Position numbers and translations under genes: made by a program. Below are positions 4,023 to 11,903 of a stretch of 31,006 nucleotides of DNA, piece after piece. Source of the DNA: a virus. The stretch lies in IMG/VR virus record IMGVR_UViG_3300012352_000501, positions 1 to 31,006 of that record, one strand, 5' to 3'. The notes below the pieces were generated by a model. The model did no database searches and was not told the origin of the DNA. It saw nothing but the letters and a program-made list of their open reading frames with translations. Each line of letters starts with the position of its first letter. Positions within the stretch are counted from its first letter, which is position 1.

Positions 4023-4258
4023 AATCACTAAAAAAAGTTAAATGCTTGTAAATAAACGGTTTAAGTATTTTTTGTGTCGTATCGAATTAATAATTTGCAA
4101 AGTCTGTTGTGTAAAAAAAATGCAAAACAATAATTTTTTTTTTAAGTGTAACATCTAAAAAAATACGACATACGTCATATAAAAAATAAAACACCTTATT
4201 TTATTAAGTTTTTTTAAAAAAGTGTGTGATTTATGTGAATAATCACAAAAACATTTAG

Positions 4259-8627: not shown

Positions 8628-8927
8628 ATGGCAATAGATACCTACAACAACGAACCAGGTTACTTCGATAAATTAGAAAAACCTGAAACTGATTACAGAA
8701 CCGAAATCGAAGTTCTTGAGGATTACGTCAAAGACACTTTTAATGACGATGAACTGACGGCTTTAGTCGATTCAATTAAAATGCGCTCAATACTTATTTC
8801 GAGAACGAACGACAGAATCAATAAAATCGAATCAGATCTAGCAACGTTTGGAAATATCAGCTCAGATGATAGAATCGAATTAGCACAAAGAAAATTATTG
8901 CTAACCAAGTTAATTCAAGATTTATGA
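8628..8927 (+). CDS. Hypothetical protein (99 aa)
   Basis: ATG ORF with an ATGA stop/start overlap with the next gene. Confidence 0.7.
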   Translation: MAIDTYNNEPGYFDKLEKPETDYRTEIEVLEDYVKDTFNDDELTALVDSIKMRSILISRTNDRINKIESDLATFGNISSDDRIELAQRKLLLTKLIQDL

Positions 8928-9358
8928 ATATTTTCTATCTAGATTCAGACCCAGTAAAAGCCGCAGAGCAACATTACAATAAACACGTCGTGAAAATGGT
9001 AATAGAAGCAGCGCAACTATTATGCACCGCTCATCATATCGAAGGCGATGGAAATGTTCCGTATAAAAAGACACATATTAACCACCCATCAGCTGTTTGG
9101 GTACGTTCTTCAGTAGAAAATTATATGTGGTGCTATAATTATATGCTAGCACTTGGCGACGAATACACGAAGCGATACGGCAGAAATCATTTAACGATAG
9201 AAAAGTGCAAAGAAATTCTTTCTTTCGCTCCGCATAAAGTTACAAGGTTCGGATTTACAGATCCACCGCAATGTATGCCAGACGAATATAAATCGTCAGA
9301 TACAATCGAAGCATATCAGAAATATTATCAAATCGGCAAAGCCCACTTAAAAAATTAA
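8924..9358 (+). CDS. Conserved phage protein of unknown function (144 aa)
   Basis: The N-terminal FYLDSDPVKAAEQHYNKHVVKMVIEAAQLL motif looks like a widespread phage/viral family that I cannot name with confidence. Confidence 0.7.
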   Translation: MNIFYLDSDPVKAAEQHYNKHVVKMVIEAAQLLCTAHHIEGDGNVPYKKTHINHPSAVWVRSSVENYMWCYNYMLALGDEYTKRYGRNHLTIEKCKEILSFAPHKVTRFGFTDPPQCMPDEYKSSDTIEAYQKYYQIGKAHLKN

Positions 9359-9898: not shown

Positions 9899-9906
9899 TA
9901 TATTTG
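9899..9906 (+). promoter_or_regulatory. TAnnTTTG -7 box within the 12-mer TTATATTTGTCC
   Basis: agttttcttatatttgtcc, 28 nt before the terS ATG at 9934. Confidence 0.6.
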
Positions 9907-9933: not shown

Positions 9934-10203
9934 ATGGAAGATGGTAGAAAAAATAATGGAGGTGCTAGAGAAGGAGCAGGAAGGCGACCAAAAGCTGATG
10001 AAATAAAAGTAATCGAGCAGATGGATGCAGTTATGGTTCCAGAGAAAGTTTGGGAATCTTTAGCGAAAAGAGTTATGGAAGGCGAAACGAACGCAATTAA
10101 AACTTGGCTTCAATATAGATTCGGAATGCCGAAACAGATAATCGAGCAAACGAATATCAACCCAGACAGACCGAATATTGTTTTTATTAAGAAAACAAAG
10201 TAA
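9934..10203 (+). CDS. Putative small terminase subunit / DNA-binding protein
   Basis: 89 aa with a Gly/Arg-rich N-terminus (NGGAREGAGRRPK). It is the first gene of the unit that contains terL. The assignment is by position and composition only. Confidence 0.5.
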   Translation: MEDGRKNNGGAREGAGRRPKADEIKVIEQMDAVMVPEKVWESLAKRVMEGETNAIKTWLQYRFGMPKQIIEQTNINPDRPNIVFIKKTK

Positions 10204-10233
10204 AACAGTACCTTCTACGCTACCCATAAGAAC

Positions 10234-10331
10234 AGCGTACCAGGGAAGGTCTTTTGCATATTGCGTTAAGGTGTAAAGGTTGCATTCTGGTTTCATATGC
10301 CAGAGGGGTGGTTCGATTCCACGCTACGCTA
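10234..10331 (+). tRNA. tRNA-like element 1 (CAU anticodon arm; non-canonical, 98 nt)
   Basis: T arm GGTGG-TTCGATT-CCACG (10307-10323, outer pair mismatched). Anticodon arm CTGGT-TTCATAT-GCCAG (10287-10303). D arm GTGT-AAAGGTT-GCAT (10271-10285). The 3' acceptor CTACGCT pairs 6/7 with AGCGTAC at 10234-10240, which leaves about 28 extra nt before the D arm. Confidence 0.45.
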
Positions 10332-10337
10332 CAAAAC

Positions 10338-10461
10338 AGTCAGGTGGCGGAATAGTTAGGAATATTAAAGTTCCTTTCAAGGTAGACGCAATCGGAAGGT
10401 TAGGTTATGGTAAAGCGACCATTATAAATCCTGTGTACAGGTTCGAATCCTGTCCTGACTA
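10338..10461 (+). tRNA. tRNA-like element 2 (no identifiable anticodon arm, 124 nt)
   Basis: Perfect T arm ACAGG-TTCGAAT-CCTGT (10437-10453). Acceptor AGTCAGG (10338-10344) pairs 7/7 with CCTGACT (10454-10460). It has a class-II-like start GTGGCGGAATA...GGTAGACGC, but a hairpin AGGAA-TATTAAAG-TTCCT is inserted at 10358-10375. No 5-bp stem with a 7-nt loop was found by exhaustive hand scan. Confidence 0.35.
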
Positions 10462-10474
10462 CAAATTTTTAATT

Positions 10475-10633
10475 ATGAAATTTATAGGATTTACAAAATT
10501 TATTTATCCAACTAAATTAAAATTTTACAGAAACGTCTATGGCTCCGAAATAGAGATTTTAAAATGTAAATCGATCTGGATTGATTCGGACCATAATTTT
10601 TACAGATGCATGGAACACTATGGAAGAGGTTAA
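10475..10633 (+). CDS. Possible 52-aa micro-ORF upstream of terL
   Basis: Translation: MKFIGFTKFIYPTKLKFYRNVYGSEIEILKCKSIWIDSDHNFYRCMEHYGRG. This is the only part of track ORF 10280..10633 that does not lie on the tRNA-like elements. Confidence 0.3.
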   Translation: MKFIGFTKFIYPTKLKFYRNVYGSEIEILKCKSIWIDSDHNFYRCMEHYGRG

Positions 10634-11903
10634 ATTTTCAGATAAATACGAACCTTTATTTGATTTACTACTAGAAACTGATTCAGCTTTAAAAAAAGTT
10701 GATACAGTTTGCTTGTCTGGTGGTCGTGATTCGGGAAAGTCTTTCGCTTTAGGTTGCTTCGTCGGATTAGCAACTGCCCAATATAATCATCGAGTGCTAT
10801 TCACTAGACAGACGATGTCCTCAACCGATAACTCGATTACTGCCGCACTAGATAATCGTTTGAAATTATTAGGAATCGACAACCTTTATAATTTCGCCAA
10901 TAACAATTACACGGTTCGGGATTCAATAGGCAAGATTTCTATAACGGGGCAAAAGACTTCAGTAGGAACTCAAACGGCGAAGCTAAAATCACTTGAGGAT
11001 TATTCGATTTTTATAACGGATGAAGCTGAGGAACTTACTAGCTATGAAGAGTGGATAAAAATAAAACGTTCGATGAGAGCAACCGACGTTCAGTGTCTTT
11101 CGATTCTTTGCTTCAACCCACCTACAAAAAAACACTGGCTTTATAATGAATTGTTCCAAGGAGTTCCAGATGGATTCAATGGCATAATTGATAATGTACT
11201 TTATATCCATACGACTTACCTAGATAATGGCCAAGAGAATATGGCACCGCATAACTGGTTTGAATATGAGCGTTTGAGATTAGTATATGAAAGCTATTTG
11301 GCAACCGATAAAGATGATCAGCCCTTCCTTCCTAAAAAAGTAATCCGAGAATACAAGGAATACAAAAGCACAATTCTTGGTGGCTTTAGAGATTCGGCAG
11401 AAGGTGTTATTTTCGACTACACTATTGGGGAATTTTACGAAAGCGAATATGGAGCCGTTTACGGAATGGACCAAGGATTCACTCACCCGACGGCATGCGT
11501 CAAAGTGTTCGTGGATAAAAACGAAAAGAAAATTTATTTAAAAGAGGTTTTTTATAAAACGAATCAGACCGCAACTCAGATCTATAACGTCATAAAAGAC
11601 GAAGTTGGATTCACTAGAATTTGGTGCGATAGTGCAGCCGCAATGTTCATTAAAGATTTGTACAATAAGGGGCTGAATATAAAGGCGTGTAAGAAGCCGA
11701 AAATTAAAGATAGGATAAATCTAGCTTTGGACTATGAAATTATCATAGACAAGGATAGCATTAATCTACAGAACGAAATGAACAACTACAGATGGTCCGA
11801 CAAGAATCAAGACCAACCGTTTGACGATAACAATCACGCCATAGATGCCTGGGGTTATGCGTTCACTCATATTATAAATGAGAATATTGCACAGATTCTA
11901 TAA
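10620..11903 (+). CDS. terL: Terminase large subunit (PBSX XtmB / Terminase_3-like)
   Basis: Walker A is LSGGRDSGKSF and Walker B is IFITDEAEE. The C-terminal RNase-H-like nuclease carries WCDSAAA and NNHAIDAWGYA. ATG 10620 is preferred over the track TTG at 10581. Confidence 0.9.
   Translation: MEEVKFSDKYEPLFDLLLETDSALKKVDTVCLSGGRDSGKSFALGCFVGLATAQYNHRVLFTRQTMSSTDNSITAALDNRLKLLGIDNLYNFANNNYTVRDSIGKISITGQKTSVGTQTAKLKSLEDYSIFITDEAEELTSYEEWIKIKRSMRATDVQCLSILCFNPPTKKHWLYNELFQGVPDGFNGIIDNVLYIHTTYLDNGQENMAPHNWFEYERLRLVYESYLATDKDDQPFLPKKVIREYKEYKSTILGGFRDSAEGVIFDYTIGEFYESEYGAVYGMDQGFTHPTACVKVFVDKNEKKIYLKEVFYKTNQTATQIYNVIKDEVGFTRIWCDSAAAMFIKDLYNKGLNIKACKKPKIKDRINLALDYEIIIDKDSINLQNEMNNYRWSDKNQDQPFDDNNHAIDAWGYAFTHIINENIAQIL

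What the first reader, a model, noticed from the sequence alone, without database searches (positions are those of the whole stretch)
10202..10470. Two over-long tRNA-like elements and a nest of short direct repeats between terS and terL
Seen in sequence: two canonical T arms lie on the + strand, G53-TTCGATT at 10307-10323 and TTCGAAT at 10437-10453. Each is followed by a 7-nt 3' acceptor strand whose complement lies far upstream. CTACGCT (10324-10330) pairs 6/7 with AGCGTAC (10234-10240). CCTGACT (10454-10460) pairs 7/7 with AGTCAGG (10338-10344). Element 1 has a good D arm (10271-10285) and anticodon arm (CTGGT-TTCATAT-GCCAG, anticodon CAT). However, about 28 extra nt separate the 5' acceptor strand from the D arm, the variable loop is only 3 nt, and the total length is 98 nt. 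Element 2 begins like a class-II tRNA (GTGGCGGAATA...GGTAGACGC). It carries a hairpin with an 8-nt loop (10358-10375) inside the would-be D loop. I found no 5-bp/7-nt-loop anticodon arm anywhere, and its length is 124 nt. The region is also laced with direct repeats: CTACGCTAC at 10215-10223 and 10324-10332, AAAACAGT at 10202-10209 and 10333-10340, AATCCTGT at 10427-10434 and 10446-10453, GGAAGGT at 10244-10250 and 10394-10400, and AAGGT five times within about 160 nt. Inference, three possibilities: (a) expanded phage tRNAs or tRNA mimics, for example decoys or replacements against host anticodon nucleases, or RNase P / CCA-adding processing handles; (b) decayed tRNA pseudogenes or scars of host tRNA capture; (c) a structured pac/TerS recognition region, given the position between terS and terL.
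Basis: partly seen in the sequence, partly recalled or inferred. Interest (0 to 1): 0.7.

Follow-up and report, generated by a model that had tools for sequence, protein, structure and literature searches.

The report
Mobile tRNA-like RNA cassettes in a phage
Between the phage's two DNA-packaging genes lie an odd methionine-type tRNA gene that standard tRNA finders miss and a recently inserted copy of a widespread, apparently undescribed, mobile tRNA-shaped element whose ends are conserved and whose middle differs from copy to copy.

Summary
The interpretation needs correcting.

- **Element 2 (10338-10462).** It is a full-length member of a large family found only in uncultivated phages. Two scans, each capped at 120 rows, gave about 190 IMG/VR contigs, with up to 12 or more copies per contig.
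  - The family keeps a leucine-tRNA "top half": acceptor AGTCAGG/CCTGACT, a tRNA-Leu D arm, U48, the T arm and A73.
  - The anticodon/variable region is replaced by a hypervariable body, giving total lengths of 54-196 nt.
  - The window gained its copy recently. Relatives with 91.6-97.7% identical flanks lack exactly these 130 nt.
  - Identical units sit in unrelated flanks in other phages. At two orthologous loci the flanks are 80-100% identical while the bodies are unalignable.
- **Element 1.** It is not 98 nt. The conserved unit is 71 nt (10262-10332) and belongs to a 61-contig family of tRNA(CAU)-like genes. These have conserved non-Watson-Crick pairs at 1·72, 6·67, 7·66 and 49·65, and ARAGORN and Rfam miss them at default thresholds.
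- **Rejected readings.** The pac-site and decayed-pseudogene readings are not supported.
- **Open question.** Function is inferred only. The likeliest reading is a non-decoding tRNA mimic matured by the host tRNA-processing enzymes.

The parts
9899..9906 (+). TATATTTG, a match to the Bacteroidota -7 promoter box TAnnTTTG, 28 nt upstream of the terS-like ORF. It is the likely promoter of the transcript that carries both elements.
   Evidence: No further TAnnTTTG lies between 10203 and 10475. The promoter consensus is from my own knowledge of Bacteroidetes promoters. Function is inferred.
9934..10203 (+). 89-aa ORF, a small-terminase candidate assigned by synteny only.
   Evidence: No Pfam or PHROG hit. 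There are 205 homologues. In relatives with 64-73% identity the gene overlaps TerL by 11 nt. In L140 it directly precedes TerL.
10202..10223 (+). AAAACAGT...CTACGCTAC. These are short direct repeats of the element-2 5' junction and of the element-1 3' end. They may be the remnant of a collapsed tRNA-like unit.
   Evidence: L002 and L003 read TTCCACGCTAC here, matching the element-1 T-stem/acceptor 3' strand. The remnant reading is inference.
10234..10240 (+). It is lineage-specific and is not part of the conserved unit.
   Evidence: It is used in the single-sequence MFE fold, but the z-score is only -1.16. It is absent from L140, L141 and the rest of the 61-contig family.
10262..10332 (+). Element 1, a 71-nt non-canonical tRNA(CAU)-like gene.
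- Acceptor: 10262-10268 / 10324-10330, with only pairs 2-5 Watson-Crick.
- D arm: 10271-10285.
- Anticodon arm: 10287-10303, with CAT at 10294-10296.
- T arm: 10308-10322.
- A73 at 10331 and C74 at 10332.
   Evidence: Rfam tRNA scores 24.7 bits, below the cut-off of 29. ARAGORN calls it only at a lowered threshold.
10329..10335 (+). Left copy of the 7-nt direct repeat CTACAAA. It consists of the tRNA-like 3' end plus trailer and bounds the 130-nt insertion.
10338..10462 (+). Element 2, a member of the AGTCAGG-chassis (tRNA-Leu-derived) family.
- 5' acceptor strand: 10338-10344.
- U8 at 10345.
- D stem: 10347-10349 / 10387-10389.
- G18 G19 at 10381-10382.
- T arm: 10437-10453.
- 3' acceptor strand: 10454-10460.
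- A73 at 10461 and C74 at 10462.
   Evidence: Family covariance model R1 scores 63.6 bits, E = 4.5e-15, covering model positions 1-92. The element is absent from L001, L002, L003 and L272.
10358..10375 (+). Hairpin AGGAA-TATTAAAG-TTCCT inserted inside the D loop of element 2.
   Evidence: Other family members lack it. L023 carries a different D-loop insertion.
10398..10422 (+). Nested, degenerate second 5' half inside the body of element 2. GGTTAGG can pair with CCTGACT through G-U pairs, and it is followed by an ATGGT/ACCAT hairpin.
   Evidence: The Rfam tRNA hit at 10398-10461 uses it as the acceptor plus D arm. It suggests that the body arose by fusion or duplication of family units (inference).
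10459..10465 (+). Right copy of the CTACAAA direct repeat.
10475..10633 (+). Conserved 52-aa ORF that starts 13 nt after A73 of element 2 and overlaps the TerL start.
   Evidence: phrog_35589, E = 1.3e-6. It is conserved with synonymous-type changes in L002, L003, L271 and L274.
10620..11903 (+). Large terminase (Terminase_3). Its probable true start is the ATG at 10620.
   Evidence: Pfam and PHROG hits. Relatives have 427-aa gene calls.

Best explanation
The region is an accessory non-coding-RNA slot in the packaging operon of a phage that infects Bacteroidota. It holds two different tRNA-derived genes.

**Element 2 (10338-10462), shown.** It is a recently acquired copy of a mobile, phage-specific family that keeps only the top half of a leucine tRNA.
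- Retained parts are the 7-bp acceptor AGUCAGG/CCUGACU, U8, a tRNA-Leu D arm with A14, A15, G18 and G19, U48, the T arm, A73, and a C74-A/U trailer like that of neighbouring genuine phage tRNAs.
- The anticodon and variable arms are replaced by a body that is free in length and sequence.
- Units move as discrete pieces of about 60-200 nt.
- Their bodies are exchanged at fixed loci.

**Element 2, inferred.**
- Body exchange most simply occurs by recombination through the conserved ends of 24-27 nt.
- The element is co-transcribed with its neighbours from the promoter at 9899.
- It is cut out by RNase P and RNase Z and receives CCA, yielding a stable RNA of about 125 nt that cannot decode. This processing also cuts the operon transcript 13 nt upstream of the next ORF.
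- It then acts through its conserved top half. My preferred role, at roughly 30% likelihood, is a decoy or competitor for a host factor that reads tRNA acceptor ends. Such a factor could be a defence toxin, or LeuRS, whose E. coli-type identity set the chassis retains.
- Mere transcript punctuation or selfish spread are nearly as likely.

**Element 1 (10262-10332).** It is an ordinary-length member of a separate conserved family of phage tRNA(CAU)-like genes with fixed mismatches in the acceptor stem. It is probably a working, non-standard Met/Ile2-type tRNA or a mimic of one.
For: **Family membership and tRNA-Leu origin**
- Model R1 matches 10338-10462 over its full length at 63.6 bits.
- Positions 5-26 of the chassis consensus are 100% identical to annotated tRNA-Leu genes in all 5,426 E. 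coli genomes.
- The D and T stems show compensatory changes: 92% of cells are paired, and 9 pairs have changes on both sides against 3.1 in shuffles.
- T-stem variants from the 5'-seeded sample keep pairing.

**Non-decoding**
- ARAGORN at default calls only 22 of 115 members, with inconsistent anticodons.
- Total lengths range from 54 to 196 nt.

**Phage-specific**
- Only 14 hits occur among 185,579 species genomes, and all are MAG contigs.
- No hit occurs among 50,697 GenBank phage records.

**Recent gain**
- L001, L002 and L003 have flanks 97.7%, 93.0% and 91.6% identical (long downstream segment) and lack exactly 130 nt bounded by CTACAAA. L272 lacks them as well.
- An independent assembly, L270, carries the insertion.

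**Mobility**
- Of 71 element pairs with similar bodies, 56 have no flank similarity on either side.
- L015 and L018 share the same unit, identical over 94 nt, in unrelated flanks.

**Body exchange**
- At the terS-terL locus and at a locus upstream of a 215-aa ORF, most flank pairs are 80-100% identical, the 3' chassis is mostly 88-100% identical, and the bodies score about 28-61% in global alignment. That amounts to unalignable bodies, with at least 5 and 7 types respectively.

**Expression context**
- Of the nearest long flanking ORFs, 329 of 398 are co-oriented with the element.
- About one third of copies end 2-38 nt before a same-strand ORF.
- A TAnnTTTG box ends exactly 4 nt before A1 in 17 of 261 copies.
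- Genuine tRNAs in the same loci share the N73-C-A/T trailer and lack an encoded CCA.

**Element 1**
- It belongs to a 61-contig family.
- The inner four anticodon-stem pairs are 100% paired, with 3-4 pair types each, and the loop is CUCAUAA in 23 of 26 sequences.
- Non-Watson-Crick pairs are conserved at 1·72, 6·67, 7·66 and 49·65.
- ARAGORN at default of 48.
Against: - **No expression data.** Maturation, CCA addition and charging are all inferred from the anatomy.
- **Ascertainment bias.** The samples were seeded on exact 16- or 25-mers, and my extraction required pairing, so conservation and pairing percentages are inflated.
- **The bodies look unconstrained.** They are on average no more stable than shuffles (mean z = -0.17). 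Their ends do not form a closing helix more often than shuffles. They show no complementarity to the phage's own genome. This gives no positive evidence that the body does anything.
- **No conserved partner.** The commonest neighbouring protein cluster is present in only 19 of 206 loci.
- **The element is dispensable.** Near-identical phages lack it, so it may be neutral or selfish.
- **Sequence conservation is unexplained by processing.** RNase P and RNase Z read shape rather than sequence. Strict conservation of the acceptor sequence is therefore not explained by processing alone.
- **Element 1's acceptor is weak.** Only 4 of its 7 acceptor pairs are Watson-Crick, which is unusual for an RNA that is charged and used in translation.
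Confidence: 0.55

Rival explanations
1. Purely selfish mobile DNA. Under this view the AGTCAGG-chassis units are tRNA-derived, SINE- or MITE-like parasites of phage genomes. Their conserved ends are needed only for their own propagation, and they give the phage nothing.
For: - Near-identical phages differ by presence or absence of the unit.
- Identical units sit in unrelated flanks.
- Multi-copy arrays occur.
- Truncated, 'solo' and internally disrupted copies exist, such as L178, L070, L152 and L158.
- There is a weak excess of abutting flanking direct repeats of 4-8 nt: 23 observed against 10.8 +/- 2.9 in permutations.
- The bodies look unconstrained.
Against: - Compensatory changes keep the D and T stems paired. 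Flanking ORFs are co-oriented with the element 329 to 69. Both point to selection at the RNA level, which a DNA-only parasite would not need.
- No reverse transcriptase, transposase or integrase appeared among the family matches of the window's proteins, and no partner protein is shared across loci.
- The flanking-repeat signal is weak, variable in length, and inflated by orthologous copies.
Confidence: 0.22
2. Transcript punctuation only. Under this view the elements serve only as RNase P / RNase Z cleavage sites. These sites separate cistrons and give the downstream ORF a short A-rich leader, as in the mitochondrial tRNA punctuation model.
For: - The elements lie between ORFs in an operon with no internal promoter or terminator.
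- Many copies end 13-16 nt before an ATG.
- Only the top half, the part these enzymes recognise, is conserved.
Against: - Arrays of 6-12 or more copies inside ORF-free tRNA clusters need no extra cleavage sites.
- Shape-reading enzymes do not explain strict conservation of the acceptor and D-arm sequence, or of the LeuRS-type elements A73 and U48.
- Relatives function without the element.
Confidence: 0.13
3. Genuine decoding tRNAs. Under this view element 2 is a class-II tRNA (Leu, Ser or Tyr type) with introns or expansion segments that are removed or tolerated, and the family supplies codons to the phage.
For: - A few family members of about 72-90 nt have plausible anticodon arms, including Leu UAA/CAA/UAG, Lys UUU, Ile GAU and Val UAC.
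- Many copies lie in tRNA arrays.
- ARAGORN in intron mode at 70% threshold can force a Tyr(ata) call with a 60-nt intron on the window copy.
Against: - 93 of 115 members are not called.
- The shortest members have no room for an anticodon arm.
- Insertions occur at many different positions, including the D loop, the body and the 3' acceptor strand.
- The window copy has no 5-bp stem with a 7-nt loop.
- Bacteria have no known tRNA splicing endonuclease (my own knowledge), and no RNA ligase or endonuclease family appeared among the window protein matches I saw.
Confidence: 0.05
4. Decaying tRNA pseudogenes, or a structured pac/TerS recognition site specific to the terS-terL junction.
For: - Detector scores are sub-threshold.
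- The position is between terS and terL, and tRNA-like elements recur at that junction in another phage group: L093, L148, L162, L166, L190, L197 and L212.
Against: - Both families are conserved and show compensatory changes.
- Most copies are nowhere near terminase genes, since TerL is present in only 19 of 206 loci.
- There are up to 12 or more copies per contig.
- Element 2 is absent from close relatives.
- In L271 and L274 the slot holds unrelated sequence.
- More distant relatives have terS overlapping terL with no spacer.
Confidence: 0.04

Closest known systems
Phage-encoded tRNA genes and tRNA arrays
   Same: - They share acceptor, D and T arms and the same N73-C-A/T trailer without an encoded CCA.
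- Many copies are interspersed with genuine tRNAs in arrays.
- Element 1 has a full cloverleaf with a CAU anticodon.
   Different: - Element 2 and most of its family have no anticodon arm and are 54-196 nt long.
- All family members share one acceptor sequence, whatever 'anticodon' a program assigns.
- The body is hypervariable and is exchanged at fixed loci.
- Element 1 has conserved mismatches at 1·72, 6·67, 7·66 and 49·65, and default detectors miss it.
Murine gammaherpesvirus 68 tRNA-like/pre-miRNA genes (TMERs) and the engineered 'tRNA scaffold' for RNA expression. Both are cited from my own knowledge and were not checked in the paper library.
   Same: A virus-borne or designed tRNA-like module is used as a processing and stability handle. 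It is cleaved by tRNA-maturation enzymes and carries a non-tRNA sequence. In MHV68 there are several tandem copies per genome.
   Different: - Those are eukaryotic and driven by Pol III, with the payload downstream of the tRNA-like part. In the engineered scaffold the payload is a closed stem replacing the anticodon arm.
- Here the payload lies between the D and T arms, is not stem-closed and is not notably structured.
Bacterial and phage Y RNAs (YrlA) with a tRNA-like domain (PMC4201824, from the hit list; read only as an abstract)
   Same: They are non-coding tRNA mimics with T-arm and D-arm-like modules, and some are found in phages.
   Different: - The topology differs. In YrlA the RNA ends form the Ro-binding stem (my own knowledge), whereas here the ends form the acceptor stem.
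- No Rfam Y-RNA family matched at E up to 10.
tRNA-derived SINEs of eukaryotes
   Same: They are short, non-autonomous, tRNA-derived units dispersed in unrelated contexts with a conserved head. Here there is also a weak signal of variable-length flanking direct repeats.
   Different: - The genomes here are dsDNA phages, and no reverse transcriptase partner was found.
- There is no A-rich or LINE-derived tail.
- Both ends of the tRNA shape are retained, not only the 5' head.
Integron attC sites
   Same: They have conserved imperfect inverted-repeat ends around a centre that varies in length and sequence (57-141 bp, from my own knowledge). They are associated with exchangeable units next to small ORFs.
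   Different: - The elements here carry unmistakable tRNA signatures: a GGTTCGAATCC T loop, a tRNA-Leu D arm and A73.
- They usually move without the adjacent ORF.
- No integrase was seen in the window.
Phage T4 stable RNAs 'species 1 and 2' (rnaC/rnaD) in the tRNA cluster (my own knowledge, not checked)
   Same: They are over-long stable RNAs of unknown function, encoded among phage tRNA genes and matured along with them.
   Different: I could make no sequence or structural comparison here. Those RNAs are single-copy in T-even phages and are not reported as a mobile, hypervariable family.

Membership tests
Canonical tRNA (Rfam RF00005 / ARAGORN) | Score at or above the curated threshold (29 bits), or an ARAGORN default call | tested here: not met
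   Both hits score 24.7 bits. ARAGORN at default finds 0 genes. Calls appear only at -ps80 or lower.
Canonical tRNA (Rfam RF00005 / ARAGORN) | 7-bp acceptor stem | tested here: inconclusive
   Element 2 pairs 7 of 7. Element 1 has 4 Watson-Crick pairs plus the conserved non-pairs U·U, U·U and A·C.
Canonical tRNA (Rfam RF00005 / ARAGORN) | 5-bp anticodon stem with a 7-nt loop | tested here: inconclusive
   Element 1 meets this, with covariation across its family. Element 2 does not. The Rfam alignment deletes the arm, and ARAGORN offers only a 4-nt 'anticodon' or a forced intron.
Canonical tRNA (Rfam RF00005 / ARAGORN) | Length about 70-95 nt | tested here: inconclusive
   The conserved unit of element 1 is 71 nt. 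Element 2 is 124 nt to A73.
AGTCAGG-chassis tRNA-Leu-like family (defined here) | Full-length match to covariance model R1, which covers the acceptor, the D stem and the T arm | tested here: met
   10338-10462 scores 63.6 bits, E = 4.5e-15, over model positions 1-92. It is the only strong hit in the window.
AGTCAGG-chassis tRNA-Leu-like family (defined here) | tRNA-Leu-type D arm, U48, A73 and C74 | tested here: met
   The window copy has GGCGGAATAG...GGTAGACGC, a T before ACAGG, and A10461 and C10462. The consensus D arm is identical to E. coli tRNA-Leu.
Non-canonical tRNA(CAU)-like family (defined here) | D arm GTGTAAAGGTTGCAT, a CAU anticodon loop, and non-Watson-Crick pairs at 1·72, 6·67, 7·66 and 49·65 | tested here: met
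   The window copy matches the pattern and carries U·U, U·U, A·C and G·G at those positions. Its loop is UUCAUAU rather than the usual CUCAUAA.
Bacterial initiator tRNA-fMet | A 1·72 mismatch plus three consecutive G-C pairs at the base of the anticodon stem | tested here: not met
   The 1·72 mismatch is present in 24 of 26 sequences. The anticodon stems (CUGGU/GCCAG and similar) lack the three G-C pairs. The feature list is from my own knowledge.
tmRNA | Detection by ARAGORN's tmRNA model | tested here: not met
   No tmRNA was found at default or at a 70% threshold.
Y RNA / YrlA | Match to the Rfam Y-RNA families | tested here: not met
   No such hit at E up to 10 in 10100-10600.
pac / TerS recognition site | Present and conserved in all close relatives at the packaging genes, and essentially unique in the genome | tested here: not met
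   Element 2 is absent from L001-L003 and L272. The slot holds unrelated sequence in L271 and L274. Family copies are multi-copy elsewhere.
SINE-like retroposon | Target-site duplications and a reverse-transcriptase partner | tested here: inconclusive
   There is a weak excess of abutting repeats, 23 against 10.8. No reverse transcriptase appears among window proteins or common neighbours. Host-encoded enzymes could not be examined.
Substrate of RNase P / RNase Z / CCA-adding enzyme / LeuRS | Cleavage at positions 1 and 73, CCA addition, and leucylation | not testable with these tools
   Only the anatomy is compatible.

The most novel reading that the evidence does not exclude
The AGTCAGG-chassis elements are a previously unrecognised class of phage RNA genes. 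Each is a horizontally mobile, modular cassette made of a leucine-tRNA top half, possibly chargeable by LeuRS, that carries an exchangeable body. Phages of Bacteroidota would use them in conflict with the host. The top half might act as a sponge for toxins or enzymes that act on tRNA acceptor ends. Alternatively, the body might supply target specificity. Body replacement at fixed loci would then reflect diversifying selection rather than neutral recombination.
Probability: 0.3. Interest if true: 0.85.

Novelty: new variant of a known kind. Interest (0 to 1): 0.7.

Why it matters
Standard annotation leaves these loci blank, or calls them odd or pseudo tRNAs. Yet one family occupies up to several kilobases of some phage genomes and recurs in about 190 or more uncultivated phage contigs.

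- **If the RNAs are matured and stable,** they would be a natural counterpart of the engineered tRNA scaffold. They would also form a new layer of phage non-coding RNA, possibly anti-defence.
- **Fixed loci with unalignable bodies** offer a clean natural system for studying short-homology cassette exchange in phages.
- **The tRNA(CAU)-like family** has conserved acceptor mismatches, which shows that phage tRNA repertoires are under-counted by default tools.
- **Natural variants with and without element 2** (window and L270 against L001 and L272) make the question directly testable.

Tried and rejected
- **Standard detectors.** ARAGORN at default and Rfam at gathering thresholds found nothing in the window. 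Permissive Rfam gave only sub-threshold tRNA hits.
- **Known phages.** blastn of the region against GenBank phages gave no match. The chassis consensus matched only generic T arms.
- **Host-tRNA capture.** The exact 25-mer occurs in no isolate genome.
- **Antisense or spacer-like body.** No non-self complementarity was found in the window or the loci. The only hits were homologous bodies in other elements.
- **Structured payload.** Bodies are not more stable than shuffles (mean z = -0.17). Closing helices are not enriched.
- **Conserved partner protein.**
  - The top neighbour cluster is present in only 19 of 206 loci.
  - The commonest neighbours are TerL, DUF932, a GIY-YIG/NUMOD3 endonuclease and TerS.
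- **Donor of the window's copy.** Body-specific patterns were absent from IMG/VR and the JGI metagenomes.
- **Long-range acceptor for element 1.** It is thermodynamically possible but not significant, and it is not conserved.
- **Element 1 as a member of the element-2 family.** Rejected, because R1 does not match it.
- **Literature.** Seven full-text searches, including the exact sequences, returned no description of either family.
- **Integron-like [element + ORF] cassettes.** Rejected, because similar elements rarely share the downstream flank (3 of 71 pairs).
Full report
**1. The observation**

Short repeats in 10202-10470 exceed dinucleotide shuffles:
- 7-mer pairs: 12 against 2.5 expected (P about 0.0015).
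- 8-mer pairs: 4 against 0.64 (P about 0.03).
- AAGGT: 5 occurrences against 0.76.

ARAGORN at default and Rfam at gathering thresholds report nothing in the whole 31-kb window. With permissive settings, Rfam's tRNA model gives two hits of 24.7 bits against a cut-off of 29. One is at 10262-10331: a complete cloverleaf with anticodon CAT and a poor acceptor. The other is at 10398-10461: acceptor, D and T arms with the anticodon arm deleted. ARAGORN finds the same two only at 80% threshold or lower.

**2. The phage**

- The TerL is a Terminase_3 protein. Its best match among GenBank phages is 36.6% identity to Nonlabens phage P12024, followed by Riemerella phages.
- The window encodes a helicase, a primase-like protein, thymidylate synthase, SSB, exonucleases, portal, tail fibres and endolysin. 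No integrase or reverse transcriptase appeared among the family matches.
- A TATATTTG box, matching the Bacteroidota -7 consensus (my own knowledge), lies at 9899 upstream of the 89-aa ORF. No other such box or terminator lies before 10475.
- The 89-aa ORF has no family hit. It has 205 homologues. In relatives with 64-73% identity it overlaps TerL by 11 nt, so it is a small terminase by synteny.
- The spacer between terS and terL in the window's lineage is therefore derived.

**3. Element 2 belongs to a large phage family**

*How widespread it is.*
- The 25-mer is in only 14 contigs among 185,579 species genomes. All are MAG contigs, five of them binned as Bacteroidota.
- It is in no GenBank phage.

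*What the members look like.*
- They share AGTCAGG-TG-GCGGAAT(T)GGTAGACGC at the 5' end and T-ACAGGTTCGAATCCTGT-CCTGACT-A-C at the 3' end.
- Between these lies an unalignable body. Total length is 54-196 nt, and 115 of 122 extracted copies are unique.
- Positions 5-26 of the consensus are identical to annotated tRNA-Leu genes in every E. coli genome.
- A14, A15, G18, G19, U48 and A73 are kept. Together these make up the E. coli LeuRS identity set, which does not include the anticodon (my own knowledge).

*Structure support.*
- On a 45-sequence alignment the acceptor, D and T pairs are 92% paired. Nine pairs have double changes against 3.1 in shuffles.
- In the 5'-seeded sample the T stem varies by compensatory or wobble changes.
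- Both samples are biased by how I seeded and extracted them.

*Model search.* A covariance model built from the alignment (R1) matches window 10338-10462 end to end at 63.6 bits (E = 4.5e-15). It finds no other strong hit in the window and does not match element 1. It finds 12 or more copies in L012 and 6 or more in L018, L023 and L052.

*Not ordinary tRNAs.*
- ARAGORN at default of 115 members, with anticodons of many specificities on the same acceptor.
- A minority of 70-90-nt members look like plausible Leu, Lys, Ile or Val tRNAs.
- The shortest members have no room for an anticodon arm.
- Bodies are purine-rich and on average no more stable than shuffles (mean z = -0.17). They are not closed by a helix more often than shuffles, and they have no complementarity elsewhere in the sampled DNA.

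*The window copy is composite.* It has a 25-nt hairpin insertion in the D loop (hairpin at 10358-10375). It also has a nested degenerate 5' half (GGTTAGG, 10398-10404, plus a D-arm-like hairpin).

**4. Recent gain, mobility and body exchange**

*Gain in the window.*
- L001, L002 and L003 have flanks 97.7%, 93.0% and 91.6% identical (long downstream segment).
- All three carry element 1 but lack exactly 130 nt bounded by CTACAAA. L272 and L273 do too.
- An independent assembly, L270, has the insertion.
- CTACAAA is the last two acceptor bases plus A73 plus a CAAA trailer. Genuine tRNAs in these phages have the same N73-C-A/T-A trailers and no encoded CCA.

*Mobility across the family.*
- Of 71 element pairs with similar bodies, 56 share no detectable similarity in either 400-nt flank.
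- L015 and L018 share the same unit, identical over 94 nt. Identity stops within two bases of A1 and C74.
- Abutting flanking direct repeats of 4 nt or more are about twice as frequent as in permutations: 23 against 10.8 +/- 2.9. The signal is weak, variable in length, and inflated by orthologues.

*Body exchange at fixed loci.*
- The converse also holds. At the terS-terL junction of one phage group, and upstream of a 215-aa ORF in another, most flank pairs are 80-100% identical.
- The 3' chassis there is mostly 88-100% identical.
- The bodies score about 28-61% in global alignment, which amounts to unalignable. There are at least 5 and 7 types respectively.
- L166 and L190 have 99% identical TerS and identical flanks but unrelated bodies. 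The L190 body recurs at about 97% identity in an unrelated AT-rich context, L117.
- The simplest mechanism is recombination through the conserved ends of 24-27 nt. This is inferred.

**5. Context**

- Elements are co-oriented with the nearest long ORFs 329 to 69.
- About a third end 2-38 nt before a same-strand ORF. The downstream ORFs are diverse.
- In 17 of 261 copies a TAnnTTTG box ends exactly 4 nt before A1, so the transcript should start at the element. These copies belong to a few orthologous groups.
- No neighbouring protein is shared by more than 19 of 206 loci. The commonest are TerL, DUF932, a GIY-YIG/NUMOD3 endonuclease and a gp3-type TerS.

**6. Element 1**

- Its 3' 25-mer is in only five contigs. 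Its D arm plus CAU loop pattern finds 61 contigs.
- None of the non-window members has the upstream AGCGTAC strand. The conserved unit is 71-72 nt.
- In 26 distinct sequences the inner four anticodon-stem pairs are always paired, with 3-4 pair types each. The loop is CUCAUAA in 23. It is UUCAUAU in the window lineage and in L230.
- Acceptor pairs 2-5 are Watson-Crick, with two compensatory changes.
- Positions 1·72 (U·U or C·U in 24 of 26), 6·67 (U·U in 19 of 26), 7·66 (A·C or A·A) and 49·65 (G·G or G·A) are conserved non-pairs.
- ARAGORN at default of 48. Rfam gives 23-26 bits.
- Many copies sit in tRNA arrays.
- It is therefore a conserved, non-standard tRNA(CAU)-like gene, not a 98-nt element and not a pseudogene.
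- It lacks the three G-C pairs of initiator tRNAs.

**7. The slot is polymorphic**

Among close relatives, the space between terS and the 52-aa ORF holds different contents:

| Loci | Content of the slot |
|---|---|
| window, L270 | element 1 + element 2 |
| L001-L003, L272, L273 | element 1 only |
| L274 (TerS 91% identical) | an unrelated structured sequence of about 135 nt |
| L271 (TerS 97% identical) | a crAss001_48-like 66-aa ORF plus that same sequence |

More distant relatives have no spacer at all. This excludes a pac role and marks the site as an accessory-cargo hot spot.

**8. How it probably works**

*Shown:* identity, family membership, recent insertion, unit mobility, body exchange, pairing-preserving variation, co-orientation.

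*Inferred:*
- The elements are transcribed from the 9899 promoter.
- RNase P and RNase Z excise them and CCA is added.
- The RNA cannot decode.
- It acts through the conserved top half.

Because the acceptor and D-arm sequence is conserved, and not only the shape, I favour recognition by a sequence-reading partner. That could be a decoy for an enzyme or toxin acting on acceptor ends, or for LeuRS. I put this at about 30%. Selfish spread is at about 22% and punctuation alone at about 13%.

**9. Comparison and novelty**

The elements work like tRNA mimics or scaffolds (MHV68 TMERs, the engineered tRNA scaffold, YrlA) and spread like SINEs. They fail the membership tests for canonical tRNA, tmRNA, Y RNA, initiator tRNA and pac site. 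Seven literature searches, including the exact sequences, and Rfam 15 contain no description. I rate the finding a new variant of a known kind (tRNA-derived non-coding RNA).

**10. Limits**

- There are no expression data.
- Sampling was capped and seeded on exact words.
- Hosts are unknown.
- The flanking-repeat and promoter statistics include non-independent orthologues.

Noticed in passing
L274:965-1090; L271:1290-1425; L140:13330-13470 (- strand); L279-L283: A third conserved non-coding element of about 135 nt occupies the same terS-to-ORF slot in close relatives, in place of the tRNA-like elements. Its sequence runs ACTGGCT - hairpin - GGGAAT - hairpin - CGGGAGC - hairpin - GCRAGTTAGTAAG N4 GGTGGGAAAGGCTAACA. 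The hairpins covary (CTCAAG/CTTGAG against CTGATA/TATCAG). ACUGGCU can pair with AGUUAGU. There is no Rfam hit.
   Followed up: partly
L166:13390-13470, also L190, L197, L212, L214, L148 (oriented as): A second tRNA-like chassis follows the AGTCAGG element directly and lies upstream of TerL. Its acceptor is CGGCTATG...CATGGCCG and its T arm is GCAGGTTCAAATCCTGC. Its middle also differs in L212. These phages therefore carry a tandem pair of tRNA-like elements between terS and terL, as the window does.
   Followed up: partly
L027, L032, L111, L114, L012 (5' flanks shown): A small GAAAGA-loop hairpin recurs about 5 nt upstream of A1 of several family copies. Examples are GCTCG-GAAAGA-CGAGC with the variants CCTCG/CGAGG and GCTTG/CAAGC. 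It may be a leader or processing signal.
   Followed up: no
L152:1912-2110; L158:5114-5320; L178 (- strand, from position 4099 of the reverse complement); L070:3140-3230: Aberrant family copies exist. L152 and L158 have insertions of 50-90 nt inside the 3' acceptor strand. L178 is a 'solo' form in which the 5' 16 nt are joined directly to CCTGTCCTGACTAC. L070 has lost the T arm.
   Followed up: no
15 of 206 family loci, e.g. L018:4408-5085, L038:13013-13684: GIY-YIG + NUMOD3 homing-endonuclease genes lie within a few kb of the element arrays. They could drive gene conversion at the conserved chassis. They are absent from the window.
   Followed up: partly
window 10475-10633 and 10620: A conserved 52-aa ORF (phrog_35589) lies between the elements and TerL and overlaps it by 14 nt. 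The TerL start is more likely the ATG at 10620, which gives 427 aa as called in relatives, than the TTG at 10581.
   Followed up: partly
L271:1086-1286: In a relative with 97% identical TerS, the slot also holds a 66-aa ORF of Pfam family PF21825 (crAss001_48-related, E = 1.4e-16). A similar small protein follows a family element in L022.
   Followed up: partly
L270 (Logan ERR3489832), 3' end of the contig: An independent short-read assembly of the same phage breaks exactly at ...CCTGACTACAAA, the 3' end of element 2. This is what a repeated sequence in the sample would produce.
   Followed up: no
L012:1-3900 (- strand): A stretch of about 3.7 kb in a 62-kb phage contig has no convincing ORF. 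It is filled with 12 or more family copies and variants interspersed with five genuine tRNAs. One variant has a covarying acceptor, AGTCGGT/ACCGACT.
   Followed up: partly
window 8924-9358: A 144-aa ORF just upstream of the packaging genes matches phrog_624 strongly (E = 3e-51, 'DNA binding protein'). It matches Pfam Pyr_excise (pyrimidine-dimer glycosylase) weakly and below the cut-off.
   Followed up: no
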